Origin: Candidatus Hydrogenedens sp.
GTDB taxonomy: Bacteria > Hydrogenedentota > Hydrogenedentia > Hydrogenedentales > Hydrogenedentaceae
DNA: 24,300 nt
Assembly: GCA_049968235.1 (NCBI GenBank)
Contig: JBMFRC010000032.1
Span: 1 to 24,300, forward strand
Direction of reading: 5' to 3'
Numbering within the stretch: position 1 is the first letter of the stretch; every line of letters begins with the position of its first letter. Below, piece by piece: positions 164-19,187 of the stretch. Position numbers and translations under genes: made by a program. The notes under the pieces are model-generated. The model was given only the letters and a program-made list of their open reading frames with translations, ran no database searches and had not been told where the DNA came from.

Positions 164-2263
164 TTATGGTTCAAAACGGTAACTACTTCCTATCCGTTCC
201 ATGATACGATTCCCTACTTCCACAGGGACATCTTCGTATCGTTCAAATTCCATAGCATAATTGGCTCTTCCTTGACTGCATGACCGGAGGTCATTGGCAT
301 AGCCAAAGAGTTCCGCCAGAGGCGCCAGGGCATGTATGATTTGTCTTTGCCCATCTACTTCCATGTTTAACATCCGTCCCCGACGATGGTCTAAATCATT
401 GATAATATCGCCGGTATATTCCGGAGGTGTATCTATCTCTAACCGCATAATAGGTTCGAGTAGAATAGGTCGGGCATTCATAACGGCTTCCTTCACTGCC
501 ATTGATGCGGCAATCTGGAATGCCAAATCCGACGAATCAACTTCATGATAAGAACCAAAGGTAAGTATAATTTTTACATCCACCATCGGATAACCCGCTA
601 CAATTCCTGTTTCGAGGGCTTCTTTACATCCTTTCTCTACAGCAGGAATATAGTTTTTCGGGATAACTCCACCTGTGGTCTTATCCTCAAAAATAAATCC
701 GGAACCTCGTGGTAATGGTTCAAGGGTCAATACGACATGTCCATATTGTCCACGACCACCTGTTTGTCGGACAAATTTTTTGTCCGCCGTAGCAGACTGG
801 CGGATTGTTTCGCGATATGCAACTACAGGCTTTCCTACATGAGCCTCGACACCAAACTCTCGTTTCATACGGTCAATAATAATTTCGAGGTGTAGTTCGC
901 CCATCCCTGCAATAATCGTTTGCCCTGTTTCTTCGTTAACCCGAACACGGAAAGTAGGGTCTTCATCTGCAAAACGATGCAAGGCATTCGACAAACGGTC
1001 CTGGTCTGCTTTTGTCTTTGGTTCAATTGAGATATGAACCACTGGCTCCGGAAAAGTCAGGGGCATAAGTGCAATAGGATGTTTAGGAGCACAGAGTGTA
1101 TCGCCCGTTAGAACACTTTTACAGCCAATCACAGCGCCGATGTCGCCGGTCCTTAATTCTTTAATTTCCGTTCGTTCATCCGCATGGAGTTCTACAATCC
1201 TACCCAGTCGTTCTTTCATTCCGGTTCGTGTATTCATAAGGGTTTGTCCCGTTTCAATCACACCGGAATATACCCGCACAAAGGTTAGTTTGCCTACATG
1301 CGGGTCGCTCAGGATTTTGAACGCCAATGCTGAAAATGGCTCATCATCCGAAGGATGGCGTAGCACTTTTTTGTTGGGGTCTTGGGGTAATGTTCCCTCA
1401 TACGGCGGTAAATCGATTGGAGATGGTAGATAATCTACTACCGCATCCAGAGTTAGCCGTATTCCCTTATTTTTAAGTGCACTACCACATAGTACCGGCG
1501 TACCTATTCGGTTGATACAAAGTCTGCGAATTGCTTTTTTGAGTAAATCTACCGGAATTTCTTTTCCCTCGAGATATAACTCGAGGATATCTTCGTCATG
1601 GTTGGCAACCACTTCGATAAGGTGCATCCTCCAGAAATGAGCATCATCATGATACTCTTCCGGAATTTCTTCCGATACCTGAACACAATCTACAGTTTCT
1701 CCAACCCAGGTAACCATTCTTTGATTGAGCAAATCAATAACTGCTCGGAAATTTTCTTCACTACCGACAGGAATTTGGACAGGAAGTGTTAATGCGTGGA
1801 GGCGATGCTCGATGGATTCTATGGCTTGAAAAAAATTGGCGCCAACCCGGTCCATCTTGTTAATAAAAGCAATTCGCGGAACTTTATATTTTTCCGCCTG
1901 TCTCCACACGGTTTCGGACTGCGGTTGAACGCCTGCAACACCACAAAAAACGATGATGGCTCCATCGAGAACCCTCATACAGCGTTCTACTTCTGCGGTG
2001 AAATCAATGTGACCCGGTGTATCAATGATATTTATCCGATGTCCTTTCCATTCACACGCCGTCGCTGCAGAGGTTATGGTGATACCGCGCTCCCGTTCCT
2101 GCTCCATGTAGTCCATGGTAGCGGCACCGTCATGGACCTCGCCCACGCGGTGCACCCGGCCGGAGTAGTACAAGACGCGTTCAGTAACGGTGGTCTTGCC
2201 GGCATCAATGTGGGCCGCTATTCCTATATTACGGATATTTTCTAACGGGTATTTGCGTGGCAT
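164..2263 (-). CDS. fusA: Translation elongation factor G
   Basis: The track ORF 164..2329 shows EF-G hallmarks (AHIDAGKTT, DTPGHIDF, NKMD and the full domain II-V sequence). The start is trimmed to the ATG at 2263 (MPRKYPLENIRNIGI...), which has a GGAG Shine-Dalgarno 10 nt upstream. The 22 upstream codons in the track have no homology. Confidence 0.95.
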   Translation of the reverse strand: MPRKYPLENIRNIGIAAHIDAGKTTVTERVLYYSGRVHRVGEVHDGAATMDYMEQERERGITITSAATACEWKGHRINIIDTPGHIDFTAEVERCMRVLDGAIIVFCGVAGVQPQSETVWRQAEKYKVPRIAFINKMDRVGANFFQAIESIEHRLHALTLPVQIPVGSEENFRAVIDLLNQRMVTWVGETVDCVQVSEEIPEEYHDDAHFWRMHLIEVVANHDEDILELYLEGKEIPVDLLKKAIRRLCINRIGTPVLCGSALKNKGIRLTLDAVVDYLPSPIDLPPYEGTLPQDPNKKVLRHPSDDEPFSALAFKILSDPHVGKLTFVRVYSGVIETGQTLMNTRTGMKERLGRIVELHADERTEIKELRTGDIGAVIGCKSVLTGDTLCAPKHPIALMPLTFPEPVVHISIEPKTKADQDRLSNALHRFADEDPTFRVRVNEETGQTIIAGMGELHLEIIIDRMKREFGVEAHVGKPVVAYRETIRQSATADKKFVRQTGGRGQYGHVVLTLEPLPRGSGFIFEDKTTGGVIPKNYIPAVEKGCKEALETGIVAGYPMVDVKIILTFGSYHEVDSSDLAFQIAASMAVKEAVMNARPILLEPIMRLEIDTPPEYTGDIINDLDHRRGRMLNMEVDGQRQIIHALAPLAELFGYANDLRSCSQGRANYAMEFERYEDVPVEVGNRIMERIGSSYRFEP

Positions 2264-2470
2264 AGTATTTCTGCTCCTCAGCATCCTTTGCTCCGCTATA
2301 CCCGGGGCCCTGGCACATGCTGTATTCAATTGTCAAGTATGATTTCCTGTCTATTTATAGCAGGACAATCGGTTATTTATTCCTACAGCTGTGCAACGCC
2401 CCGATAATACGGAGCGTATTGCTCAGCCTGTTGTTCTTATTCTCCTATGTTCTTCTTTAGAACTCATATA

Positions 2471-3663: not shown

Positions 3664-3692
3664 AGAGATAATATTATATACAATATTCAACT
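3664..3692 (-). promoter_or_regulatory. Sigma-70-like promoter for the bTHX-rpsL-rpsG-fusA-tuf operon
   Basis: The minus strand reads TTGACA (complement of 3687..3692), a 17-nt spacer, then TATATA (complement of 3664..3669), about 65 nt upstream of the bTHX ATG. Confidence 0.45.
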
Positions 3693-3710
3693 CAAATGTC
3701 AAATGTTATC

Positions 3711-5393
3711 TTAGAAATTCAAATTCTTTTTTAATTCCTGAATTTTGCGAATCTGCTCTTTTACTTCTTTGATGAGTTTTTCATATTCTACAAACGGATT
3801 CATAATATCCGGCAGGCAATCGATAAACTGTTTCATCATTTTTTTTCGCACACCTCTTGCACTAATATATACAACCTTATCATATATCCAGAAACTAACC
3901 CATATACTAATTAAAAATACAATACAAGAATGAATAATAAAATTTGCTCCTTGATAATAACCCAGGAAATAGCCCGGAATAATTTGCCAGAAAAAATATA
4001 CCAATACCGTATACATAGGTACATAAAACAATTCCACTAAAAAATAGTTTGACAGACACCTTGCCTTCTTTACGAGATAAGAATCCACTCGCTCTTTCAA
4101 GAAATCAACTCCACTCTTGAAAAAATTTGATACAAAATTTTCAGATATAGATGGAACAGCATCTTTGCGAATCTGGGCTTTATCGAGAGCAAAGGCAAGG
4201 TCATATTGAACATTTTCTAATTCACGATTACATTTGTTTGATATTTGCATTGCTATTTCATGAACAATCTCATTAATTTTCCTTTCAAAATAAGTCATCT
4301 CTTCTTTATGGGGTTGAACCATCTCTCTTACAATGTTCCATGGACGGATTACTTTAGAAAGGGTTCTCAAAACACCGGATAAACGATTCCGTATCTGTGC
4401 AAGTAATAAAAAAATACCATGTAATTCAAATGCAATTTCATCCTTCAACAGATGGTAGAAGGTCCCTGCCTCCTTTCCAAACTCTGTCCGAATGATTCGT
4501 GCCTGTTGTTTTACTAATTCTACTTTTTTCCTATCTATAAATTCTTTCATTTCATTGACTGCAGGCTCCGTTTCCTGCAAAAAATCATCTATTCTCGCTA
4601 TCATCTTTCCTATCAACCCATGAACATTTGCCGTTTTTATCTGACGGATTTTTGTATCGGTAAGTTGTTGGGCAAGGAAATTTTCTAACTTTGTAAAATC
4701 AAATTCATTTGTTTCCGTATCCTCCGATTTTGTTCCTAATTTCCTATTCAATGCACGAAGTGCATTTATACAAAAATAAGCAAGCGGTTCTATCCCATCC
4801 AATCTTAATCTCTTTAACCAGTCATCCATGATAGATGGAATTTCTGATGTCATCTTTGTTTCCACCAGAACAAAACCCCGTTCTTTACTCACTTCACGAA
4901 TGATACTCCATGTTGCTTCTTCAAGGTATTTATCTCCATTGCCACAAAGCAGGATAAGGTCACATTTTTCTATCATCTTCTTTGTAAAATTGCGATGCTC
5001 CTTAATAACAGTATCGGTATCAGGGGTATCAATAAGAACAATATTATCGAGAGCGGAGCGGGCATATAATTCGCATTCTCCCTTCAATTCCGAATACGGT
5101 TCCCAATCCGGAGGATAATAGATAATAGGTCTATTTGTGCAGGGTCTCATTTCTGATGTCCTTGCAATTTTATCGCCAGCAATAGCATTAATCAGTGTTG
5201 ATTTACCTACCCCTGAACCGCCTACAATTGCAACGATTAATAGAGCATCAATTTTACTACTTCTTTCTTTTATTTCTTTAATACCCCCTTTTAACTTCTC
5301 CGCTATCGGTAAGAAACCTTCCCAATTCCCTTTATAATCCGCTATCTCTTCCAATTGATGGATAATTTTTTCTAAGTTTGCTTTAGGGAACAT
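3711..5393 (-). CDS. Bacterial dynamin-like GTPase B (Dynamin_N-type G domain plus helical stalk plus C-terminal two-helix membrane hairpin)
   Basis: G1 is GGSGVGKST and G3 is DTPD. The G4-equivalent is TKMT (aligned to NKVD in the upstream paralogue). A long helical region follows, then two hydrophobic helices (LVELFYVPMYTVLVYFFWQII... and FIIHSCIVFLISIWVSFWIY) near the C-terminus. The GAGGAG Shine-Dalgarno overlaps the stop of the upstream GTPase, with a 12-nt gap. Confidence 0.8.
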   Translation of the reverse strand: MFPKANLEKIIHQLEEIADYKGNWEGFLPIAEKLKGGIKEIKERSSKIDALLIVAIVGGSGVGKSTLINAIAGDKIARTSEMRPCTNRPIIYYPPDWEPYSELKGECELYARSALDNIVLIDTPDTDTVIKEHRNFTKKMIEKCDLILLCGNGDKYLEEATWSIIREVSKERGFVLVETKMTSEIPSIMDDWLKRLRLDGIEPLAYFCINALRALNRKLGTKSEDTETNEFDFTKLENFLAQQLTDTKIRQIKTANVHGLIGKMIARIDDFLQETEPAVNEMKEFIDRKKVELVKQQARIIRTEFGKEAGTFYHLLKDEIAFELHGIFLLLAQIRNRLSGVLRTLSKVIRPWNIVREMVQPHKEEMTYFERKINEIVHEIAMQISNKCNRELENVQYDLAFALDKAQIRKDAVPSISENFVSNFFKSGVDFLKERVDSYLVKKARCLSNYFLVELFYVPMYTVLVYFFWQIIPGYFLGYYQGANFIIHSCIVFLISIWVSFWIYDKVVYISARGVRKKMMKQFIDCLPDIMNPFVEYEKLIKEVKEQIRKIQELKKNLNF

Positions 5394-5405
5394 CGTTCTC
5401 TCCTC

Positions 5406-7229
5406 TTATGATTTTTGCTCTTCTATAATCTCATTGTTCTGTAGGCTATCTATTTGCAATTGCTCTATATTTCCCTCTTGCGAAATAAATCCCCCATTAA
5501 AAATATTCCGAACTTCTTTATCAAATTCCTCTGCAAAACTTATATATTTATATATATCCTGTAAAACATACTGTAGAACTTCTTCCTTTAATATCTGCTG
5601 AAGTTCTCCCTGTTTCTCTATTATCCATTTTTCATAAAGTGAATTTATGCTCTTCTGGAATCTTTTATATTCAACAGTTTCAATAAATGCCGAACCTCCA
5701 AGCATTCCTCCTCCAGCTATTATTTCCGCCCAGGGTCCAACATATGGCATTCCCCAAAACATGGAAATCATACCCGCACCCAAAAGCAGAAAAGACATAA
5801 TTCGCTTGCCATAAAAGCCATTCAAATTCGGAGAATCTAAAAAATCGGCGACAATCTTTTCAATTTCTTTTTGTATCCATTCAGGTTTTACAGAGAGCGC
5901 GTTTTCCATTCGTGTAATGATTTTCATTTTTACTACATCTCGATTGTTATGTAATTCATGCAATCGTTTATTTATATTTTCATCTATGTAATCAATATCG
6001 GAACTAAATTCTAATTTCAGCAACCAATCCAAGAGTTCATTAAAACATTTTTCTATCATTTCATTATGTTTTTGTTTTATCTCTACTTCTGCCCCTTCTG
6101 TGCTTATTTCCAACTTCTTGATTTCACTTCGATATCCGGAAAAAATAGAGGTGGGGAATAAAATCAAGTATGTAAAATAACCAATATGTTTCCTTAACTC
6201 GTATTTAATTTCTTCTACTAACCGAATCCAGCGGAATGGGATAAACTCCCTACTGATAATGGTATTTTCCAGATAATCTTCACAGAATCTTACCTTTGAT
6301 AGGGAAATATCTAAAAGTTTTAAAAATTTATTCTTATACCATTGTCCAAATTTTTCTTGAAAACTACTTATGGTTTTTTCTAAGATTTTTACTTTTGTTT
6401 CCTGCACAGGGAAAGAATAAATATACTCCCTTAATTCGGGAGCAACTTCTGTCAGCGGTTTAATAGGAGCATTTAAATAATTTTCATTGTAAGGATATTT
6501 AGGAAAGTAAAAACGGGGCAGATTATCATCCATTCCTACTTTTTTCATAAATTCTCTTATCTGTTTGTCTGCAATTTGAAGTGCTTTGGGATTATCAATA
6601 TCAACCTTGTTCATCACAGGAATCACGATCTTCCCTTCTTCATAAGCATGTCGGAAAAATTTGATTACCGCATCATCCATATACTTAGAATCATTTGTAA
6701 CCGCAATAATAATATCCCCAGCGGATACAATTTTATCTGCTATCTCCCAATGTTCCTTCGCAATAGAATCAATATCCGGAGTATCTAAATACAAATAAGT
6801 ATTGGGGATAGATTTTTCTTCCTTAACTAAAAGAATATGATTCGGGAGGGAATCGCTAATTGCCTCTTCTTTACTTTTCATCTCTCTCGCTTCAAATTCA
6901 AGAAACATATTGTTATCCAAACATTGTTTCGCCTTCTGTTCAGAGGCAATAATAACAGGTCTTTTGGTCGCCGCAGCATAAGGGTCTGTTGCAGTTAATT
7001 CTTGCTTCATTAAAACATTTAATATAGTGGACTTCCCTGTATTGGTTCCTCCGGCTACAGCAACAATAAGGCATCCTTCCCTTTCTAAATGAGGAACAAG
7101 TTTCCCCAAAAATAATTTCTCCCACGCAGACAAATCTTCCCCGTTTAATACATTTAAATCCAATTCCATTATCTTATTCTTAAACCGCTTCCATACATCA
7201 GCAAACAGGTCTATCCAATTACTTTCCAT
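5406..7229 (-). CDS. Bacterial dynamin-like GTPase A (Dynamin_N-type G domain plus helical stalk plus membrane hairpin)
   Basis: G1 is GGTNTGKST, G3 is DTPD and G4 is NKVD, with dynamin-like spacing. At 607 aa it has a helical middle region and a hydrophobic paddle (IMSFLLLGAGMISMFWGMPYVGPWAEIIAGGGMLGG). An AGAGGGAG Shine-Dalgarno lies 5 nt upstream of the ATG at 7229. Confidence 0.8.
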   Translation of the reverse strand: MESNWIDLFADVWKRFKNKIMELDLNVLNGEDLSAWEKLFLGKLVPHLEREGCLIVAVAGGTNTGKSTILNVLMKQELTATDPYAAATKRPVIIASEQKAKQCLDNNMFLEFEAREMKSKEEAISDSLPNHILLVKEEKSIPNTYLYLDTPDIDSIAKEHWEIADKIVSAGDIIIAVTNDSKYMDDAVIKFFRHAYEEGKIVIPVMNKVDIDNPKALQIADKQIREFMKKVGMDDNLPRFYFPKYPYNENYLNAPIKPLTEVAPELREYIYSFPVQETKVKILEKTISSFQEKFGQWYKNKFLKLLDISLSKVRFCEDYLENTIISREFIPFRWIRLVEEIKYELRKHIGYFTYLILFPTSIFSGYRSEIKKLEISTEGAEVEIKQKHNEMIEKCFNELLDWLLKLEFSSDIDYIDENINKRLHELHNNRDVVKMKIITRMENALSVKPEWIQKEIEKIVADFLDSPNLNGFYGKRIMSFLLLGAGMISMFWGMPYVGPWAEIIAGGGMLGGSAFIETVEYKRFQKSINSLYEKWIIEKQGELQQILKEEVLQYVLQDIYKYISFAEEFDKEVRNIFNGGFISQEGNIEQLQIDSLQNNEIIEEQKS

Positions 7230-7293: not shown

Positions 7294-7944
7294 TCACACG
7301 TTCAATTTAGGGCAGGAAGCCCTTAACATTTTAATTACGAATTCATTGATTTGTTTTTCATCTTCGGGGTCCATCCCCACAAATTTAAGGCTTACTTTAT
7401 TTTCCTTCCCTGTAAATAACACGTGCGTTACTGAACCTAATAAGTGAAACCATTGTTCTTTCCCTGTAACAAAATGCCTCAGTGAAAAGAATACCTCTAC
7501 ACTTTCTCCTACTTCCAGAGGTTCTTCAATGCTAATTAACATTCCTCCCGCGCTAATATTATGAACAATCGCTCTAATCTTTCGTGGGTGAGCATGAGGC
7601 TTTATCTCCGCAGGTAAGTTAATGGGCATCCTCCAGAACTGACGCAGAAATATACTTGATAAACTTTCTGGAATAGATATAACAATTCCTTCTTCTGCGG
7701 AGTCAGAAACCTCAATAATTTCTGTCTGCAAAACAAGGCAACCCCGATTGCTACACAATTCAAGTGCTACCTGCATCCCTGAGAAAAGTTCATTGGAAAA
7801 TTTCGTCTGTGATATACGGATATAGCCCCGAGTAACGGAAATAATCGTTACAGGACATAACTTCCCTTCAAAACTCAATACACCGATTGTTCCTGTTTTC
7901 AATGTTTCCTGAAGAATCTGTTCTATCTCTTTTTTTCTGTCCAT
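7294..7944 (-). CDS. PilZ-domain c-di-GMP receptor (YcgR-like architecture: PilZN-type N-domain plus PilZ)
   Basis: The C-terminal half carries both PilZ motifs, RQFWR (RxxxR) followed about 25 aa later by NISAGG ((D/N)xSxGG). The protein is 216 aa. A 64-nt gap separates it from the first dynamin-like gene on the same strand. Confidence 0.7.
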   Translation of the reverse strand: MDRKKEIEQILQETLKTGTIGVLSFEGKLCPVTIISVTRGYIRISQTKFSNELFSGMQVALELCSNRGCLVLQTEIIEVSDSAEEGIVISIPESLSSIFLRQFWRMPINLPAEIKPHAHPRKIRAIVHNISAGGMLISIEEPLEVGESVEVFFSLRHFVTGKEQWFHLLGSVTHVLFTGKENKVSLKFVGMDPEDEKQINEFVIKMLRASCPKLNV

Positions 7945-8047
7945 CCTTTGTTAACCTTTTCAAACACAACTAATAATTACTTTTCTCAACAAAAAATCCA
8001 TTACAATAAGTTATACCGTAATACCTTGGATTTCATTTTAATCGAAA

Positions 8048-10681
8048 ATGTTAAAAAATAACAAAAAAGGAATATTTTTTTTGTCGCTATCAATGCTTAG
8101 CACAGGAATACCTGAATTTGACCGAATATTAAGAGGGCTAATTGCTGGAGATAATGTTGTTTTTCGAGGAAGTTCTATTGTAGATTACCGTAAGTTTGTA
8201 ATACCTTTTGTGCAACATGGACATGAAACAGCCCGTCCTGTCGTATATTTTAGATACGGGAAACATCAACCTTTATTAAAAGAATCTGAAGTATCTACAT
8301 ACGCAAATGTGGACCCGAATGAAGGATTTGAACCTTTCATCAGTCAGTTGCATCAGGTTATAAAAAATACAGAACGTCGTGCTTTTTATGTTTTTGACCG
8401 ATTATCAGACCTTTCCCTCACCTGGTTCAGTGATACAATGCTTTGTAATTTCTTTATGCTAACCTGCCCCTATTTATTTGACCGTGGCGATTTAGCATAT
8501 TTTTTCCTCGACCGTTCCCAACATACACCTGAATCCGTTACACCTATACAACAGACCGCACAAATCGTCATTGAATTGTATGACCACAATGATGACCTGT
8601 TTATTCGTCCCGTAAAGGTTCAACAGAGGCACTCCCCTTCCATGCATATGTTACATCTATGGCAAGATGGGAAAATGACCCCTATTACAGAAAGCCATAT
8701 TATGGCAAAGGTATTATCATCTATCCTCAGCACGACTCTTAGCCCGGGAGAAGGACCCACAGATATATGGAACCGTATTTTAGGAGAAGCCAAGTATGTT
8801 ATCCGTTTAGGGGACGAAAAGATTAAACAAGAACTGATGGAAATTCTCATCAAAATGATGATAACACGGGAAAAACGAATGACCGAACTATTCCTTCAAA
8901 ATTTCTCTTTAGAAGACCTTGTAGAAATAGGTAGGCGTGTTATTGGCACAGGAATGATAGGCGGAAAATCTGTAGGTATGTTACTGGCACAGGCAATATT
9001 ACGAAAAAGCAATCCCAAATGGAACCAAAAGTTAGAAAAACATGATAGTTTTTATGTTGGGTCCGATGTATATTATACCTTTCTCGTTCGTAACGGTTGT
9101 TGGTGGGCACGAGAACAACAAAAAGAGTTGGAAAGTTTTCTTCCCGGAGCAGAACGCATCCGCAGACGTATCATTACTGGGGAATTTCCCGAAGATATTG
9201 AAATGAAGTTTGAACAGATGCTTGAATATTTTGGTTCTTCACCTATCATTGTTCGTTCCAGCAGTTTATTGGAAGATAATTTCGGAAATTCCTTTGCCGG
9301 AAAATATGAAAGTGTATTTTGTGCCAATCAAGGTTCTACAAGGCAAAGACTGGAAGATTTCAAAGCGGCTGTTCGCACGGTATATGCCAGTACTGTAAGC
9401 GAAGAAGCGTTATATTATCGGAAACGGCGGGGACTTTTGGACAAAGATGAACAAATGGCTCTTTTAGTCCAACGCGTATCCGGATCCCAGCATGCACGAC
9501 TATATTTCCCGAATATTGCAGGGGTAGGTTTCTCATACAATCCCTATGTCTGGTCTGCGGAAATTGACCCTAAGGCAGGAATGTTACGTTTAGTATTTGG
9601 ATTGGGCACACGAGCGGTTGACCGTTCGGATGACGATTACACGAGAATCGTTGCTCTCAATGAACCTCTATTGCGGCCCGAAGGCTCTACCAAAGAACAG
9701 AAAAAATACTCCCAACAAAAAGTAGATGTTATTGATTTAGACGGGAACCGACTCGTTTCCATGCCCGTGCAGGAAATTGTTCCTCAATGTGAAGGGATTC
9801 CCTTAGAACTTTTTGTATCTCAGGATGTGGAAGCAGAACGATTCTATAAAGAACGCGGACAAAAAATGCCTCCTCAATGGAAAATCCGTTTTGATTCTCT
9901 CCTTACCGAAACCTCATTTGTAGAAGATATGCATGAGATTCTCATTACACTGGATAGGACATATCAGAACCCTGTAGATGTAGAATTTACCGCAAATTTT
10001 AAGAATAATAAAGATTTCTATATAGATATTGTTCAATGCAGACCTTTACAGGTCAGTGACCGTTCGGAACTCCTTTCAGAACCTGTTATTGAGGATAAGA
10101 CCAACCTAATTATTCAAACAGATGGTCCTATTATCGGAAGAAGCCGTTCTAATCAGGTACATCGAATTATCTATGTTGTCCCTCATACCTATGGAGAATT
10201 GCCAATATCTGAACGTTATGCTATTGCTCGTGCTATCGGCATCTTAAATCAAATACCTCCACTTATTACAGGCGACCCTATTGTGGTTCTTATAGGACCT
10301 GGACGTTGGGGAACCAGCGCACCTTCGTTAGGAGTATCCGTTAGTTTCTCTGAGATTAGTTCGGTCTCCTTCTTGTGTGAAATTGTTGCTATGAGAGAAG
10401 ACCTCACTCCAGATGTATCCTTGGGGACCCATTTTTTTAGCGAATTGGTAGAATCGGATTTGTTGTATTTCGTCCATTTTCCCGCTAAAGAAACTCATTA
10501 TTTCAATGAACAATTATTAACTCAACTGCCCAACAAATTAAAGGAAATATCAGCCGGATTGGAAAAATACGAAAACATTATTAAGGTATATGATTTTCTA
10601 TCTGATTCCGGAAAAACATGCCATATTTACGCAAATACTTTCGACCAGAAGCTGTTTTTATATCTCAATAATGAAGAATAA
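8048..10681 (+). CDS. Large fusion protein: degenerate KaiC/RecA-like N-terminal domain plus PEP-synthase/PPDK-type ATP-grasp nucleotide-binding domain (PPDK_N), with no recognisable phosphohistidine swivel domain
   Basis: The N-terminus reads TGIPEFDRILRGLIAGDNVVFRGSS...VVYFRYG, mimicking the KaiC/RadA TGIPxLDxxLxGG...LYVS layout but without a GxxGxGKT Walker A. Residues around 300-470 carry the PEP-utilising ATP-binding hallmarks GTGMIGGKSVGMLL and IIVRSSSLLEDNFGNSFAGKYESV. No GGRTSHAAI-type motif is present. The start codon is uncertain: there is no Shine-Dalgarno at 8048, and an alternative ATG near 8093 (MLSTGIPEF) exists. Confidence 0.6.
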   Translation: MLKNNKKGIFFLSLSMLSTGIPEFDRILRGLIAGDNVVFRGSSIVDYRKFVIPFVQHGHETARPVVYFRYGKHQPLLKESEVSTYANVDPNEGFEPFISQLHQVIKNTERRAFYVFDRLSDLSLTWFSDTMLCNFFMLTCPYLFDRGDLAYFFLDRSQHTPESVTPIQQTAQIVIELYDHNDDLFIRPVKVQQRHSPSMHMLHLWQDGKMTPITESHIMAKVLSSILSTTLSPGEGPTDIWNRILGEAKYVIRLGDEKIKQELMEILIKMMITREKRMTELFLQNFSLEDLVEIGRRVIGTGMIGGKSVGMLLAQAILRKSNPKWNQKLEKHDSFYVGSDVYYTFLVRNGCWWAREQQKELESFLPGAERIRRRIITGEFPEDIEMKFEQMLEYFGSSPIIVRSSSLLEDNFGNSFAGKYESVFCANQGSTRQRLEDFKAAVRTVYASTVSEEALYYRKRRGLLDKDEQMALLVQRVSGSQHARLYFPNIAGVGFSYNPYVWSAEIDPKAGMLRLVFGLGTRAVDRSDDDYTRIVALNEPLLRPEGSTKEQKKYSQQKVDVIDLDGNRLVSMPVQEIVPQCEGIPLELFVSQDVEAERFYKERGQKMPPQWKIRFDSLLTETSFVEDMHEILITLDRTYQNPVDVEFTANFKNNKDFYIDIVQCRPLQVSDRSELLSEPVIEDKTNLIIQTDGPIIGRSRSNQVHRIIYVVPHTYGELPISERYAIARAIGILNQIPPLITGDPIVVLIGPGRWGTSAPSLGVSVSFSEISSVSFLCEIVAMREDLTPDVSLGTHFFSELVESDLLYFVHFPAKETHYFNEQLLTQLPNKLKEISAGLEKYENIIKVYDFLSDSGKTCHIYANTFDQKLFLYLNNEE

Positions 10682-10699
10682 TATCAATAGAATTATTCG

Positions 10700-11446
10700 C
10701 TAATTGGGCTTGATTTTACCAAGGTCAATAGTAGATGCGGGAGGAATTTTTATTTCTTTGATTTCCAATATCATTCCGCGTTCGGTTTTTAGACGAAGGT
10801 TATACATACCGGCAGGAATAGGTTTGAAATGGATATTGCCTGCTTCATCGGTATGCCCATCACAGGGCCACCAGGGACCCAATTTCGGGTGAAACATCAT
10901 CAAGCCTACATTCTCATTTTTTACAGGCTGGTCATCTTTATCAAACAATTGTAATTCAATAATACTGGCTTCCAGCATCAATACTTGCATATCTTCAAGG
11001 GAATCCGCATCGGTAGGTGGAATCTCAAAATAGTTGTTGGGAAAATAATGAAGGATAGGGTCCCAGGCACGGATAAACACACCTTTGTTCTTAGGAATTT
11101 GAATGGTGCTAATCCCATCGGGACCGCTTAAATTTCCGCGGGCAATAGGTTCATCAAAGGCATTCGGTTTTTCAGTCGCAATACCCGCCATATTTTCCAG
11201 AGGCATACCTGCACTGTTTATAATCATGATTTTCCCGAAAACCCAGGAACTGGAAGCCGATGTATTTGGAACCTGTGTTTGACTTTGTACCACCTCCGTT
11301 TGAGAAGAATTCCCTACGGATGTTTTTTTAGGTTCGGATACTGTCGGCTGAGGTGCAGTATTTTTCTGACTGCACGAATTGAATACCAGAAACAATAAAA
11401 TGAGCCATACATTTATATATTTATTGTGCGGTTGTTTCATAGGCAT
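10700..11446 (-). CDS. Lipoprotein of unknown function (possible carboxypeptidase-regulatory/transthyretin-like fold)
   Basis: It has an N-terminal signal peptide with a lipobox-like LVFNSC and a low-complexity S/T/Q-rich linker. The C-terminal beta-rich segment is GMYNLRLKTERGMILEIKEIK. Its 5' end overlaps the ABC exporter's 3' end by 20-26 nt, indicating co-transcription. The start is ambiguous between 11446 and 11440. Confidence 0.55.
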   Translation of the reverse strand: MPMKQPHNKYINVWLILLFLVFNSCSQKNTAPQPTVSEPKKTSVGNSSQTEVVQSQTQVPNTSASSSWVFGKIMIINSAGMPLENMAGIATEKPNAFDEPIARGNLSGPDGISTIQIPKNKGVFIRAWDPILHYFPNNYFEIPPTDADSLEDMQVLMLEASIIELQLFDKDDQPVKNENVGLMMFHPKLGPWWPCDGHTDEAGNIHFKPIPAGMYNLRLKTERGMILEIKEIKIPPASTIDLGKIKPN

Positions 11447-14465: not shown

Positions 14466-16319
14466 CTAATCAATATCCAGTTCTTCCTCATCCAGCCCTT
14501 CCTCTGTAATTTCTTCACCTGGGAGCGATTCTTCTTCTGTTTCTTTCATAACAGACACTTTTACAATTCTCCCCATAAAACGATTTAAAATTGATTGAAT
14601 CTTCGGGTCCTGCTTTATTTCCTGTGCCAGTTCCTGTGGAACAAGGTCATTTAACAATCCCCTACGTGGAGATTGCACAGAAGATTCGTTTTGTTTTATT
14701 TCTCGATGAACAATTTGTATTTGCTTACCCGGAAAACCAAGTTCAGTAACCGTTTCGAAAATATACCGTTTTGTCTCTTCCTTCGCAAGGCATGAAAGTG
14801 CATTATTATCCGAAGGATTAACATGTATAACTACTGTTTCCGTTATTGCATCATAATGAATCTGCACATCTTTCAAAAACAACGATAATGTTGCCTTTTT
14901 TTTACTAAGTTCACGAAGCACCTTTTTAGTAAAATTTTTATCTGAATCACTCCGTTTCACGGATAAAGTACCGGATGGAGAAAGTTCCGTAGTGGGTGTA
15001 GATACTCCCGATATTGAGGATAACGATGTGGATTTTATATTTTTTTCTACCTCTGTTTTTTCAATAGAGGGGGTTTTTATCTTTTTTTTTTCCGAGGTAT
15101 TCTCCTGCTGAGAATATGCGGAACGATTTTCCTGAACCGTTTTTATCTTTGAAAATTGGATAGAGTCCTCAAGTTGCATTAATTTTTCCAGAATAGACTC
15201 AATAGATAATTCAGCACCTACCTTACAATTTTTAATAAAGAATGCTTCTAAGGCGGTTCGGTGAGAAAGTTGCGAGGTAAAATTTTGATTTAATTCCGCT
15301 AATTGCTCAACAAACTTCATAAGTTGAATTATTGTAAACTTTGCAGATTGTTCTTTTAATCGTTTTACATCTTCTTCCGGAAGGAAAAAGATATCCTCCT
15401 GTTGAGTTGTTTTAAGAATAAGTAAGTTTCTAATGTGTCGAATAAACTCCTCCACAAACTGATTCAGGTCTTTTCCGGAAGTTGAAACCTCATCAATTAT
15501 CGAGAGAACCTTAGATATATCTTTATCCTGTAACGCATATACCAACTGGTCAATCTTATCTGTCTCTATAAGCCCCAGAACATCCTGAACATCTTTATAG
15601 GTAATTTCCCCTTCACAATAGGTCATTAGTTGGTCAAGAATACTTTCCGCATCGCGAACCCCACCATCCGCAGAGCGAGCGATTGCAAACAACGCCTCTT
15701 GGGTTGCTTTCCTCTTTTCCGCTTTTACAATCTGTTCCAATAATTTTACAATATCCGGCACAGCAACTCTTCGGAAATCATACCTCTGACAGCGGGAAAT
15801 AATCGTTGCAGGGATTTTGTGGGCTTCTGTTGTGGCAAGAATAAAAACCGCATGAGCCGGAGGTTCTTCCAAAGTTTTCAACAGAGCATTAAAAGCTGCA
15901 GAAGATAACTGATGAACTTCGTCAATGATATATACCTTATATCGTGCATGTGCAGGAGCCAGACGAACCGCTTCGCGAATTTCACGGATATTATCTACAC
16001 TATTATTAGAAGCCCCATCAATTTCCTGAACATCCAAATGAGTACCCTTACTTATTTCTATACAGTTATCACACTTATCGCAAGGCTCGGGAACAGGCTT
16101 ATCCGAACTTTGACAATTTAATGCTTTAGCAAGAATACGAGCAGTAGTCGTCTTCCCAATTCCTCGCGAACCAATAAATAATAACGCATGATGTATCCGC
16201 CCAGAAGAAACAGCATTTTTTAGTGTTCGGGTAATATGTTCCTGTCCAACGACCTCATCAAATTGTTGAGGTCTCCATTTTCGAGCAAGAACATGATATA
16301 CATCATTCGGTTTCGGCAT
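14466..16319 (-). CDS. dnaX: DNA polymerase III subunits tau/gamma
   Basis: MPKPNDVYHVLARKWRPQQFDEVVGQEHI...GSRGIGKTTTARILAKALNC with a Zn-finger CDKCDNC, clamp-loader AAA+ motifs and an acidic C-terminus. The start is set at the ATG at 16319. The track extension to 16391 begins at a GTG and runs into the SRP RNA gene. Confidence 0.95.
   Translation of the reverse strand: MPKPNDVYHVLARKWRPQQFDEVVGQEHITRTLKNAVSSGRIHHALLFIGSRGIGKTTTARILAKALNCQSSDKPVPEPCDKCDNCIEISKGTHLDVQEIDGASNNSVDNIREIREAVRLAPAHARYKVYIIDEVHQLSSAAFNALLKTLEEPPAHAVFILATTEAHKIPATIISRCQRYDFRRVAVPDIVKLLEQIVKAEKRKATQEALFAIARSADGGVRDAESILDQLMTYCEGEITYKDVQDVLGLIETDKIDQLVYALQDKDISKVLSIIDEVSTSGKDLNQFVEEFIRHIRNLLILKTTQQEDIFFLPEEDVKRLKEQSAKFTIIQLMKFVEQLAELNQNFTSQLSHRTALEAFFIKNCKVGAELSIESILEKLMQLEDSIQFSKIKTVQENRSAYSQQENTSEKKKIKTPSIEKTEVEKNIKSTSLSSISGVSTPTTELSPSGTLSVKRSDSDKNFTKKVLRELSKKKATLSLFLKDVQIHYDAITETVVIHVNPSDNNALSCLAKEETKRYIFETVTELGFPGKQIQIVHREIKQNESSVQSPRRGLLNDLVPQELAQEIKQDPKIQSILNRFMGRIVKVSVMKETEEESLPGEEITEEGLDEEELDID
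15081..15091 (-). other. Candidate programmed -1 frameshift / transcriptional-slippage site in dnaX (mRNA G GAA AAA AAA AAG AUA)
   Basis: Ten consecutive T on the plus strand (15082..15091) give A10 followed by G in the dnaX mRNA, containing the A AAA AAG heptamer used by E. coli dnaX. It falls at residue about 411-413 of 617, the canonical gamma/tau boundary. The -1 frame stops after 6 codons (UGA at 15063..15061) and the other shifted frame stops after 1 codon. Confidence 0.5.
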
Positions 16320-16349
16320 AAATATATCCCTGCCATTTATGTAAAAAGT

Positions 16350-16622
16350 GCTCGCGCACCCACCTTCGAACGATACGCCCAGAACGACCACGGAGCAGTT
16401 AGCTCGGGCCCGGCGACCCTACAGCACACAGACAGAATCAACTACGGCTGCTTCCTTCCGGACCTGACCGGGTTTGTTGCCTGCCTGTTGAGTAGGACCA
16501 AGCCGTCAACACCACTTACTCCGCGCCAGCTAAAGGACATACCGCCCTCGGGAGGGAATTCAGCCTCGCTAAAGCGGATTTGCGAGTTCAGGAACGCCGC
16601 TTCGTTCCCACCTAGCGCGAGC
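16350..16622 (-). ncRNA. ffs: Signal recognition particle RNA, long Bacillus-type with Alu domain (about 273 nt)
   Basis: The minus strand carries the universally conserved domain IV sequence GGUCAGGUCCGGAAGGAAGCAGCC. It also has blocks near-identical to B. subtilis scRNA (UAAGUGGUGUUGACG, AAUCCGCU..GAAUUCCCUCCCGAGG, GGGCCCGAGCUAACUGCU). The 5' GCUCGCGC pairs with the 3' GCGCGAGC to close the terminal helix. The region is a GC-rich island in AT-rich DNA, sits directly upstream of dnaX (classic synteny), and is preceded by a consensus promoter. Confidence 0.85.
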
Positions 16623-18428: not shown

Positions 18429-19187
18429 ATGAATTTTCGCAATATGGCAATTTATTCAAGCACTTTTGTAATCTTATTTGCCTTTTTATATGGCTGTGTT
18501 AATGAGGAAAAAATAGAAATTGTTCAAAAAAGAATGGTTTCTTCTACGGAAAAACCAATAATTCCATTACCAGCCCCACAGAGACTACGATTACTACCCA
18601 CAGATTTAGATAATCGGGGACAATTAGATACAGGTTCTCTATCAGGTATTTCCCCTGAAGAAATTACAACAAAAAAAGAAGAACAGGATACAGGGAATTC
18701 CGGAATGAAACCGGATATGCGAAATACATCTCTTGCCGAAGGTGGTTTTGGAAAGTTGGAATTGGAATGGGTAACGCCGGCAGGTTGGCAAGAAGATACA
18801 AACAAGCCTATGCGAGTCGTATCCTTTAATACCGGTGATAATTCCACATGGGAATGCTACATTAGTGTGCTGATGTCGCAAGCAGGTGGAGTAGAAGCCA
18901 ATCTAAAACGCTGGGCAAATCAGATGGGAAAACGAGATATTGATACTCAGACTATCGAACAACTTACGGATGTTACTATTTTGGGGAAACAATGCAAACT
19001 TTTAGATATTACAGGTAATTACGAAGATATGCAGGGGATTACCCATGAGAATTATCGTCTATTAGGTGCTGTTTGCTCACTGGGGAATCAGACCTTGTTT
19101 GTTAAAATGATAGGACCTGAAAAAGAAGTTGCTCTTCAAAAGGATAACTTTATTAAATTATGTAATTCACTTACACTAAAAAATTAA
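18429..19187 (+). CDS. Lipoprotein of unknown function
   Basis: Signal peptide with lipobox LYGC. An AGAAGAGAGG Shine-Dalgarno precedes the ATG at 18429. It has no CxxCH or CxxC motif. It ends 25 nt before ccsB on the same strand. Confidence 0.55.
   Translation: MNFRNMAIYSSTFVILFAFLYGCVNEEKIEIVQKRMVSSTEKPIIPLPAPQRLRLLPTDLDNRGQLDTGSLSGISPEEITTKKEEQDTGNSGMKPDMRNTSLAEGGFGKLELEWVTPAGWQEDTNKPMRVVSFNTGDNSTWECYISVLMSQAGGVEANLKRWANQMGKRDIDTQTIEQLTDVTILGKQCKLLDITGNYEDMQGITHENYRLLGAVCSLGNQTLFVKMIGPEKEVALQKDNFIKLCNSLTLKN

What the first reader, a model, noticed from the sequence alone, without database searches (positions are those of the whole stretch)
7294..7944. YcgR-like PilZ protein with intact RxxxR and NxSxGG motifs upstream of the GTPases
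RQFWR followed about 25 residues later by NISAGG is the complete c-di-GMP-binding signature. The N-terminal half of about 100 aa resembles a PilZN/YcgR-N beta-barrel. YcgR-type proteins normally act on flagellar motors. Here the only plausible partners encoded nearby are the dynamin-like GTPases, suggesting a different output.
Basis: partly seen in the sequence, partly recalled or inferred. Interest (0 to 1): 0.5.

Follow-up and report, generated by a model that had tools for sequence, protein, structure and literature searches.

The report
PilZ c-di-GMP receptor beside dynamin-like GTPases
This is a small, well-conserved sensor protein for the bacterial signal molecule c-di-GMP; in one narrow group of uncultured bacteria (Candidatus Hydrogenedens) it always sits directly in front of two membrane-remodelling dynamin-like GTPase genes, which hints at, but does not prove, a new output for this signal.

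Summary
ORF 7294-7944 (minus strand, 216 aa) is a canonical PilZ protein (Pfam E 4.6e-15). RQFWR (residues 101-105) and NISAGG (129-134) are invariant in all 16 orthologue clusters.

An AlphaFold model has two beta-barrels. Its best matches are MotI/DgrA, YcgR, VCA0042, MrkH and PlzA, so the YcgR-like architecture is real. The N-domain itself hits no Pfam model.

The two downstream genes are genuine bacterial dynamin-like proteins (Pfam Dynamin_N; fold match to BDLP).

PilZ -> DLP-A -> DLP-B, on one strand with gaps under 100 nt, is kept in every orthologue context I could read. That covers about five lineages and three different sets of flanks.

The link is narrow. Of 80 species-level loci with the DLP pair, only three carry this PilZ. 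Two sister lineages lack it without any remnant. More distant relatives of the PilZ protein sit next to neither DLP genes nor flagellar genes.

Most likely this is a clade-specific c-di-GMP adaptor that modulates the DLP pair. That is inferred from gene context only. I rate it a new variant of a known kind, of moderate interest.

The parts
7294..7944 (-). PilZ-protein gene, 216 aa. It is 100% identical to an NCBI record named 'PilZ domain-containing protein [Candidatus Hydrogenedens sp.]'.
7648..7944 (-). N-terminal part, residues 1-99. It consists of a short helix (residues 3-14) and a beta-barrel of the YcgR-N/PilZNR kind. It carries the clade-specific invariant cysteines C30, C64 and C69.
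7333..7647 (-). Canonical PilZ domain, residues 100-204.
7630..7644 (-). RxxxR motif (RQFWR, residues 101-105) at the junction between the two domains.
   Evidence: Read from the sequence; invariant in 16 orthologue clusters and in 29 wider relatives.
7585..7602 (-). KPHAHP, residues 115-120. Invariant in the clade; it appears as K-x-H-V-H-P-R in the wider family. This family-specific motif lies between the two c-di-GMP motifs.
7543..7560 (-). [D/N]xSxxG motif (NISAGG, residues 129-134).
   Evidence: Read from the sequence; invariant in the orthologues.
5406..7229 (-). DLP-A, a 607-aa bacterial dynamin-like GTPase. It starts 64 nt downstream of the PilZ gene and has one hydrophobic segment around residues 477-495.
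   Evidence: Pfam Dynamin_N 43.6 bits; AlphaFold pLDDT 79.6; Foldseek BDLP 2j69 E 7.7e-10, plus SynDLP, Cj-DLP1/2, IniA, Fzo1 and LeoA; hydropathy.
3711..5393 (-). DLP-B, a 560-aa paralogous dynamin-like GTPase. It starts 12 nt after DLP-A and has two strongly hydrophobic segments around residues 450-510.
   Evidence: Pfam Dynamin_N 45.9 bits; sequence; hydropathy. It is paired with DLP-A in nearly all 80 species loci.
8048..10681 (+). Divergently transcribed 877-aa protein. The PPDK_N (ATP-grasp) domain covers residues 303-674; the N-terminal 300 aa and C-terminal 200 aa are unassigned. It is a conserved neighbour of the PilZ gene and an alternative partner.
   Evidence: synteny
7945..8047 (.). 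103-nt divergent intergenic region between the PilZ gene and the PPDK_N-like gene. A weak sigma-70-like site on the minus strand spans 8064-8035.
   Evidence: This is a consensus match only, and the region as a whole has fewer such sites than shuffled sequence.
3673..3702 (-). Perfect TTGACA-18-TATAAT promoter-like site just after the DLP-B stop codon. It probably drives rpsL-rpsG-fusA and so marks the 3' limit of the pilZ-dlpA-dlpB unit.
   Evidence: 12 of 12 matches

Best explanation
The gene encodes a soluble c-di-GMP receptor of the YcgR/MotI architectural class: an N-terminal PilZN-like barrel followed by a canonical PilZ barrel, with the RxxxR motif at the junction. In the Candidatus Hydrogenedens lineage it is the first gene of a three-gene unit, pilZ-dlpA-dlpB.

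The most likely mechanism is as follows. When c-di-GMP binds across the RxxxR and NxSxGG motifs, the two barrels close, as they do in MotI, YcgR and MrkH. The closed adaptor then docks on the membrane-anchored heterotypic DLP-A/DLP-B pair and changes its GTPase cycle or assembly. Membrane remodelling (tethering, fusion, repair or vesicle formation) would thereby come under second-messenger control.

**Shown:** domain identity, motif conservation, fold, dynamin-like nature of the neighbours, conserved adjacency.
**Inferred:** c-di-GMP binding (very likely, about 0.85), co-transcription (likely), physical coupling to the DLPs (about 0.4).

PilZ is an accessory, lineage-specific regulator and not a core part of the DLP machine.
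For: **PilZ domain and motifs.**
- PilZ HMM at E 4.6e-15.
- RxxxR and NxSxGG invariant in 16 orthologue clusters spanning 49-100% identity.

**Architecture.**
- The profile hits B. subtilis MotI/YpfA 5vx6 in register, residues 87-205 against 87-208.
- AlphaFold model at pLDDT 83.

**Neighbours are DLPs.**

**Gene order.** The order PilZ -> DLP-A -> DLP-B on the same strand is kept in the window, L012, L003/L014, L001/L013 and L005 (contig ends inside DLP-A). PilZ-to-DLP-A gaps are 22-90 nt, and the outer flanks differ:
- rpsL operon downstream in the window and L003;
- pseudopilin-like genes downstream and glycine-cleavage genes upstream in L001;
- glycosyltransferase genes upstream in L005.

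**Transcription signals.** No terminator-like site lies between PilZ and DLP-A, and a strong promoter follows only after DLP-B.

**Phylogeny.** PilZ-linked DLP-A sequences form their own clade in a neighbour-joining tree.

**Precedent.** A DLP system already talks to c-di-GMP signalling in E. coli, in the opposite direction: RdcA/RdcB activate the cyclase DgcE (PMC6510439, PMC13463826).
Against: - The evidence is gene context only, in one narrow clade. Only 3 of 80 species-level DLP loci (L012-L014) carry this PilZ.
- Sister loci L015 and L016 keep the DLP pair without any PilZ remnant, and L016 shares its flanks with the PilZ-bearing L005.
- More distant relatives of the PilZ protein (21-28% identity, same two-domain layout) sit in five unrelated contexts with no DLP nearby.
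- I found no insertion or extension in DLP-A that tracks PilZ presence.
- The PPDK_N-like neighbour is almost equally conserved.
- PilZ adaptors often act on targets encoded elsewhere in the genome.
- No paper in the searched library links a PilZ protein to a dynamin-like protein.
Confidence: 0.45

Rival explanations
1. It is an orphan c-di-GMP adaptor whose target is encoded elsewhere, such as a flagellar stator or rotor (as for MotI and YcgR), type IV pili, or a polysaccharide synthase. Its position in front of the DLP genes would be inherited gene order within a young clade, without functional coupling.
For: - The best structural and sequence match is the flagellar clutch MotI.
- Its wider family occurs as stand-alone genes in unrelated contexts.
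- The DLP pair functions without PilZ in 76 of 80 species loci and in sister lineages.
- Some genomes labelled Hydrogenedentes carry flagellins (PMC7018530), and Ca. Abyssubacteria are predicted to be motile (PMC6121073).
Against: - Adjacency and strand are kept down to 49-52% protein identity, while everything outside the module is rearranged.
- Intergenic gaps are short and no terminator-like site was found.
- No flagellar, pilus-motor or exopolysaccharide-synthase gene lies next to it in any locus examined.
Confidence: 0.3
2. The partner is the divergently transcribed PPDK_N-like protein. On this reading the PilZ adaptor regulates this ATP-grasp (phosphotransfer-type) enzyme, or both genes share a bidirectional control region, and the DLP genes are bystanders or further downstream.
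For: The PPDK_N-like gene lies head-to-head with the PilZ gene, 53-121 nt apart, in the window, L001, L003, L012, L013 and L014. It is absent from all PilZ-less DLP loci.
Against: - L005 keeps PilZ and DLP-A but has no PPDK_N-like gene upstream.
- The gene is on the opposite strand, so it cannot be co-transcribed with PilZ.
- The function of this protein is itself unknown: only the PPDK_N domain is recognisable.
Confidence: 0.12
3. The signal flows the other way, or forms a loop, as in E. coli RdcA/RdcB-DgcE. The DLP pair would act as a GTP- or energy-state sensor that controls c-di-GMP signalling, with the PilZ protein as feedback receptor or scaffold for a cyclase encoded elsewhere.
For: There is a published precedent for a DLP working as a GTP-sensing switch on a diguanylate cyclase (PMC6510439, PMC13463826). 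DLP-B gives a weak NCBIfam hit to CrfC (E 2.2e-4); that CrfC is the same protein as RdcA/YjdA is from my own knowledge, not checked here.
Against: No GGDEF, EAL or HD-GYP gene is present in the window or in the flanks of the related loci. A PilZ protein is a receptor, not a producer, of c-di-GMP.
Confidence: 0.08
4. The protein is a degenerate PilZ that no longer binds c-di-GMP and serves as a structural subunit only.
For: None specific. Such non-binding PilZ proteins do exist (for example the Xanthomonas type II PilZ 3ph1, a weak hit).
Against: Every residue of both binding motifs is present and invariant across the clade. The domain scores far above the Pfam threshold.
Confidence: 0.05

Closest known systems
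MotI / DgrA (YpfA) of Bacillus subtilis, PDB 5vx6
   Same: - Same length (216 aa) and same two-barrel layout.
- The RxxxR motif sits at the domain junction, followed by NISAGG.
- It is the only PDB sequence hit of the family profile (E 1.7e-4, in register).
- 7 of 29 distant relatives hit Pfam PilZNR, the MotI-type N-domain.
   Different: - Only 17-20% identity.
- The query's own N-domain hits no PilZN or PilZNR model.
- From my own knowledge, MotI acts on the flagellar stator MotA. Here no flagellar gene is nearby and the conserved neighbours are DLPs.
- Four invariant cysteines and a C-terminal CPKL tail are specific to this clade.
YcgR (E. coli, 5y6f/5y6h), PlzD/VCA0042 and PP4397
   Different: No Pfam YcgR/PilZN (PF07317) hit. 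No association with flagellar genes in any locus.
MrkH (Klebsiella) and PlzA (Borreliella): two-domain PilZ proteins
   Same: Same architecture; full-length Foldseek hits. MrkH is deposited as a c-di-GMP-dependent transcription regulatory factor, which shows the YcgR-like scaffold has been re-used for a non-motor output.
   Different: From my own knowledge, both proteins bind nucleic acids. Nothing here suggests DNA binding, and the conserved partner genes differ.
RdcA(YjdA)/RdcB-DgcE system of E. coli
   Same: It is the only documented functional link between a bacterial dynamin-like GTPase system and c-di-GMP signalling (PMC6510439, PMC13463826).
   Different: The direction is opposite: there the DLP activates a cyclase. 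No GGDEF protein is present here, the third component here is a receptor (PilZ), and RdcB is not a GTPase paralogue.
Paired bacterial dynamin-like proteins: Nostoc BDLP, Campylobacter Cj-DLP1/2 (5owv), LeoA/B/C, IniA/IniC, DynA/DynB
   Same: - The neighbours DLP-A and DLP-B have a GTPase domain, a long helical stalk and hydrophobic membrane segments.
- They are encoded as a tandem pair.
- Fold hits at E 8e-10 to 5e-5.
- Weak PADLOC LeoA and LeoBC hits.
   Different: - To my knowledge, and in the papers searched, none of these systems has a PilZ or other c-di-GMP receptor in its operon.
- In this family the switch-II motif reads DTPD rather than DxxG.

Membership tests
PilZ domain (Pfam PF07238) | Sequence match to the family HMM above the curated threshold | tested here: met
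   56.2 bits against a cut-off of 22.5, E 4.6e-15, residues 100-204, covering 100 of 102 profile positions.
PilZ domain (Pfam PF07238) | RxxxR motif followed 20-30 residues later by [D/N]xSxxG | tested here: met
   R101-R105 and N129-G134, 24 residues apart. All motif residues are invariant in 16 orthologue clusters.
PilZ domain (Pfam PF07238) | Six-stranded beta-barrel fold | tested here: met
PilZ domain (Pfam PF07238) | Binds c-di-GMP | not testable with these tools
   Needs DRaCALA or ITC on purified protein.
YcgR/MotI-like two-domain c-di-GMP receptors (PilZN or PilZNR + PilZ) | N-terminal PilZ-like barrel recognised by PF07317 (YcgR/PilZN) or PF12945 (PilZNR) | tested here: inconclusive
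   The query has no hit, even with residues 1-98 scanned alone at E<=10. Relatives that HMMER aligns over both domains (profile positions about 15-212) hit PilZNR in 7 of 29 cases, best E 3.5e-5.
YcgR/MotI-like two-domain c-di-GMP receptors (PilZN or PilZNR + PilZ) | Two-barrel fold with RxxxR in the interdomain linker | tested here: met
YcgR/MotI-like flagellar brake/clutch (functional class) | Genomic association with flagellar or motility genes | tested here: not met
   None in the 24.3-kb window or in the flanks of the orthologous loci or of wider relatives.
YcgR/MotI-like flagellar brake/clutch (functional class) | Host has flagella; protein binds MotA, FliG or FliM | not testable with these tools
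The literature shows only that some 'Hydrogenedentes' have flagellins.
Bacterial dynamin-like proteins (for the two neighbours) | Dynamin_N GTPase domain above the Pfam threshold | tested here: met
   45.9 and 43.6 bits against a cut-off of 27.
Bacterial dynamin-like proteins (for the two neighbours) | GTPase + helical neck/trunk + membrane-binding paddle architecture | tested here: met
   DLP-A model at pLDDT 79.6. Top fold hits are BDLP, SynDLP, Cj-DLP1/2, IniA, Fzo1/mitofusin and LeoA. Hydrophobic segments near the C-terminus. DLP-B was not modelled.
Bacterial dynamin-like proteins (for the two neighbours) | Canonical G1-G4 nucleotide motifs | tested here: inconclusive
   G1 (GxxxxGKS) is present in both. 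G3 reads DTPD instead of DxxG in both paralogues and across the family. G4 is NKxD in DLP-A of the window but TKMT in DLP-B.
RdcA/RdcB-DgcE type DLP-cyclase module | A GGDEF cyclase partnered with the DLP | tested here: not met
   No GGDEF or EAL domain in the window or the related flanks.

The most novel reading that the evidence does not exclude
c-di-GMP directly gates a bacterial dynamin machine. On this reading a YcgR/MotI-type adaptor has been re-targeted from the flagellar motor to a membrane-anchored DLP-A/DLP-B pair. The second messenger would then switch membrane tethering, fusion, repair or vesiculation on or off. The clade-specific four-cysteine cluster (C30, C64, C69, C211) might add a metal or redox input. 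This would be a new output class for c-di-GMP and the first small-molecule regulator known for a bacterial dynamin.
Probability: 0.3. Interest if true: 0.7.

Novelty: new variant of a known kind. Interest (0 to 1): 0.4.

Why it matters
What bacterial dynamin-like proteins do, and what switches them on, is still largely open. The known outputs of c-di-GMP are motility, adhesins, exopolysaccharides, transcription and the cell cycle; to my knowledge, and in the papers searched, membrane remodelling by dynamins is not among them.

A PilZ adaptor hard-wired to a DLP pair would give a testable handle on both questions. Adding c-di-GMP and the adaptor to purified DLPs on liposomes would be a direct experiment. 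It would also complement the E. coli RdcA/RdcB-DgcE case, where the information flows from the DLP to c-di-GMP.

The limits are real. The organism is uncultured, the link is confined to one genus-level clade, and it rests on gene order alone.

Tried and rejected
1. **Pfam and NCBIfam on the N-terminal 98 residues.** No hit, so membership of PilZN or PilZNR could not be shown by sequence for the query itself.
2. **Word-indexed homologue search with the wider alignment A2.** It returned almost only the protein's own clade and gave no taxonomic names for the distant relatives. The listing of cluster members gave no names either.
3. **The search for related loci with A2.** It failed because the alignment has no sufficiently conserved stretch. 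I used the single genome scan for the DLP-A alignment instead.
4. **Search for a PilZ remnant in the PilZ-less sister loci L015 and L016 by tblastn.** None found.
5. **Search for a DLP-A insertion, deletion or extension that tracks PilZ presence, as a possible docking site.** Nothing convincing. There were only two short insertions of 5-6 residues, one shared with the PilZ-less sisters, and 25 clade-specific substitutions, most of them also shared with the sisters.
6. **Independent PilZ-DLP adjacency elsewhere.** L038 has a divergent single-domain PilZ ORF 116 nt upstream of its DLP pair, and L032 has one 4 kb away. One adjacent case in 76 loci is roughly what chance would give if these genomes carry around 10-20 PilZ genes each, which is my assumption. 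I do not count it as support.
7. **Anti-phage defence reading.** PADLOC gave only weak LeoA and LeoBC GTPase-domain hits, nothing for PilZ, and no other defence genes nearby. Rejected as unsupported.
8. **c-di-GMP riboswitch or other RNA element near the operon.** Rfam finds only the SRP RNA at 16352-16620.
9. **Flagella in Ca. Hydrogenedens from the literature.** No statement found for this genus.
10. **AFDB structure library.** Not available.

Full report
**1. What is at the coordinates**

The minus strand of 7294-7944 holds an ATG-initiated ORF of 216 aa. It is 100% identical to an NCBI protein named 'MAG: PilZ domain-containing protein [Candidatus Hydrogenedens sp.]', so the window comes from the candidate phylum Hydrogenedentota.

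Pfam places a PilZ domain at residues 100-204, with E 4.6e-15 and 56.2 bits against a gathering score of 22.5.

Reading the DNA directly:
- nt 7630-7644 encode RQFWR (residues 101-105);
- nt 7543-7560 encode NISAGG (residues 129-134);
- N129 lies 24 residues after R105.

**2. Conservation**

The word-indexed search found 16 clusters at 49-100% identity, all 216-222 aa long. In their alignment R101, R105, N129, S131, G133 and G134 are invariant.

Three further features are invariant in this set:
- KPHAHP at residues 115-120;
- four cysteines (C30, C64, C69, C211);
- a C-terminal CPxL tail.

The exhaustive profile search of 1.84 billion representatives found only two representatives above 1e-30, both from the protein's own clade. 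It also found about 250 weaker hits. Many of those are 200-230 aa proteins aligned over both domains (profile positions about 15-212).

In an alignment with 26 of these relatives plus two members of the own clade (20-28% identity for the distant ones), R101, R105, G68 and G134 stay invariant. The HxHP[R/K] motif is shared. The four cysteines are replaced by F, H, Y and similar residues, so the cysteines are an innovation of the clade studied here.

**3. Architecture**

The N-terminal 99 residues hit no Pfam or NCBIfam model, even when scanned alone at E<=10. Three lines of evidence still show a YcgR/MotI-type two-barrel protein.

1. The family profile's only PDB sequence hit is B. subtilis YpfA (MotI/DgrA, 5vx6). 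That protein is also 216 aa, and the match is in register (87-205 against 87-208, E 1.7e-4).
3. Seven of the 29 sequences in the wider alignment hit Pfam PilZNR (PF12945), best E 3.5e-5.

'YcgR-like' is thus correct as an architectural statement. Membership of the PilZN or PilZNR sequence families is shown only transitively and by fold.

**4. The neighbours**

On the same strand, DLP-A (5406-7229, 607 aa) starts 64 nt after the PilZ stop codon. DLP-B (3711-5393, 560 aa) starts 12 nt after DLP-A.

Both pass the Pfam Dynamin_N threshold. By sequence they are too divergent to hit any solved dynamin.

The AlphaFold model of DLP-A (pLDDT 79.6) shows a GTPase domain, long helical bundles and a low-confidence hydrophobic loop. 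Its best matches are:
- Nostoc BDLP (E 7.7e-10);
- SynDLP;
- the Campylobacter DLP1/2 pair;
- IniA;
- Fzo1/mitofusin;
- LeoA.

DLP-B has two strongly hydrophobic segments near residues 450-510, and DLP-A has one near 477-495.

A perfect TTGACA-18-TATAAT site at 3702-3673 follows the DLP-B stop codon and precedes rpsL-rpsG-fusA. No terminator-like site lies between PilZ and DLP-A. The simplest reading is a pilZ-dlpA-dlpB transcript that ends before a separately promoted str operon. This is inference from consensus scans only.

Upstream and divergent, 103 nt away, lies an 877-aa protein (8048-10681). Only its central PPDK_N ATP-grasp domain is recognisable.

**5. Is the adjacency conserved?**

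Contexts of the orthologues:

| Locus | PilZ identity to window (best-matching cluster) | Gene order | Other flanks |
|---|---|---|---|
| L012 (Ca. Hydrogenedens terephthalaticus) | 84% (P0002) | PPDK_N-like <-> PilZ -> DLP-A -> DLP-B | not examined |
| L003/L004/L014 | 65% (P0011) | same | same flanks as the window |
| L001/L002/L013 | about 52% (P0015) | same | different: glycine-cleavage genes and a methyltransferase upstream, pseudopilin-like genes downstream |
| L005 | 49% (P0016) | PilZ -> DLP-A (contig ends) | glycosyltransferase genes upstream, no PPDK_N-like gene |

PilZ-to-DLP-A gaps are 22-90 nt throughout. The PilZ-DLP adjacency thus survives three different flank arrangements, down to about 50% identity. 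That argues for selection on the linkage.

**6. How wide is the link?**

I aligned DLP-A homologues and scanned one genome per GTDB species. This returned 80 loci, mostly Hydrogenedentota, with some Planctomycetota and Bdellovibrionales. I then searched their ORFs with local HMMs.

The DLP-A/DLP-B pair is present almost everywhere. This PilZ, together with the PPDK_N-like gene, occurs only in L012, L013 and L014. Four further DLP pairs looked up individually also lack it.

In a neighbour-joining tree of DLP-A, the PilZ-linked loci form one clade. Its sister clade contains L005 (with PilZ) and L015 and L016 (without). The placement of L005 rests on only 99 aligned residues.

L016 shares the glycosyltransferase, the 430-aa gene and the small ORF with L005. 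Between them and DLP-A it has about 400 nt of non-coding DNA and no PilZ remnant by tblastn.

So the DLP pair is the ancient, self-sufficient unit. PilZ was added at the base of a genus-level clade and later lost, or was inserted after the split. It can only be an accessory regulator.

The distant relatives of the PilZ protein sit in five unrelated, non-flagellar, non-DLP contexts.

**7. Mechanism**

- **Shown:** a complete, conserved c-di-GMP-binding signature on a MotI/YcgR-like scaffold; bona fide DLP neighbours; conserved same-strand adjacency.
- **Inferred here:** the target is the DLP-A/DLP-B pair, so c-di-GMP would tune GTP-dependent membrane tethering, fusion, repair or vesiculation.

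I put about 0.85 on c-di-GMP binding and about 0.4 on DLP coupling.

Rivals:
- an orphan adaptor acting on a target encoded elsewhere, possibly a flagellar motor (0.3);
- the PPDK_N-like protein as partner (0.12);
- an RdcA/RdcB-DgcE-like arrangement with the information flowing from the DLP to c-di-GMP (0.08);
- a non-binding PilZ (0.05).

**8. Comparison with what is known**

No paper in the searched library links a PilZ protein to a dynamin-like protein.

The nearest precedent is E. coli RdcA/RdcB, a DLP system that activates the cyclase DgcE in response to GTP and (p)ppGpp (PMC6510439; PMC13463826). That is a link between DLPs and c-di-GMP, but in the opposite direction and without a PilZ protein.

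MrkH, deposited as a c-di-GMP-dependent transcription regulatory factor, shows that YcgR-like scaffolds have been re-targeted to a non-motor output. A re-targeting to DLPs would therefore be a new variant of a known kind, not a new category.

**9. What could not be settled**

Whether Ca. Hydrogenedens has flagella could not be settled, because the tools give no whole-genome access. The literature only shows flagellins in some 'Hydrogenedentes' and predicted motility in Ca. Abyssubacteria. Ligand binding, co-transcription and protein-protein contact also remain open.

**10. Verdict**

This is a canonical PilZ receptor with a plausible, clade-restricted and so far unreported partnership with a bacterial dynamin pair. 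The evidence is comparative-genomic only. Interest 0.4.

Noticed in passing
window 8048-10681 (+): An 877-aa protein with a central PPDK_N ATP-grasp domain (residues 303-674). No PEP-utilizer (mobile phosphohistidine) domain was detected. The N-terminal 300 aa and C-terminal 200 aa have no Pfam hit. It lies head-to-head with the PilZ gene in 5 of 6 contexts and is absent from PilZ-less DLP loci. Its function is unknown.
   Followed up: partly
window 7294-7944 (-), residues C30, C64, C69, C211: Four cysteines are invariant in all 16 orthologue clusters but replaced by F, H or Y in the wider family, together with a conserved C-terminal CPxL tail. This could be a zinc or redox site tying the C-terminal helix to the N-domain. 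I could not measure distances in the model.
   Followed up: partly
window 5406-7229 and 3711-5393 (-); loci L012-L091: In both DLP paralogues the switch-II (G3) motif reads DTPD instead of the usual DxxG. This holds in 63 of 80 DLP-A and 68 of 77 DLP-B homologues. The G4 motif of DLP-B is TKxx without the Asp. The catalytic and nucleotide-specificity consequences are unknown.
   Followed up: partly
window 3673-3702 (-): A perfect sigma-70 consensus (TTGACA-18-TATAAT, 12 of 12) lies in the 325-nt gap between DLP-B and rpsL. It is presumably the str-operon promoter.
   Followed up: no
window 16352-16620 (-): Large bacterial SRP RNA (Rfam RF01854, 172.8 bits) lies immediately upstream of dnaX. 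The mechanically called dnaX ORF (14466-16391, GTG start) overlaps it by 40 nt, so the true dnaX start is probably further downstream.
   Followed up: no
L038 5058-5507 (-), next to DLP-A at 5623: In a distant Hydrogenedentota MAG, an unrelated single-domain PilZ ORF with RRYPR and NISGNG motifs lies 116 nt upstream of the DLP pair and divergent from it. One such case in 76 loci is about what chance would give.
   Followed up: partly
L005 5275-5559 (-) and L016 about 5230-5480 (-): A small conserved ORF (80-94 aa) with CxxC...CPxC and a hydrophobic segment lies between the glycosyltransferase cluster and the PilZ/DLP genes in both the PilZ-bearing locus and the PilZ-less locus.
   Followed up: no
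window 10700-11446 (-) and 18429-19187 (+): Two roughly 250-aa ORFs with N-terminal lipoprotein-like signal sequences and no Pfam or NCBIfam hit. The first overlaps the upstream ABC-transporter gene by 26 nt and is conserved in L003. The second precedes the ResB/CcsA cytochrome c assembly genes.
   Followed up: no
window 164-2329 (-): The fusA ORF is called with a TTG start at 721 aa, whereas the orthologue in L003 is 699 aa. The mechanical start is probably too far upstream.
   Followed up: no
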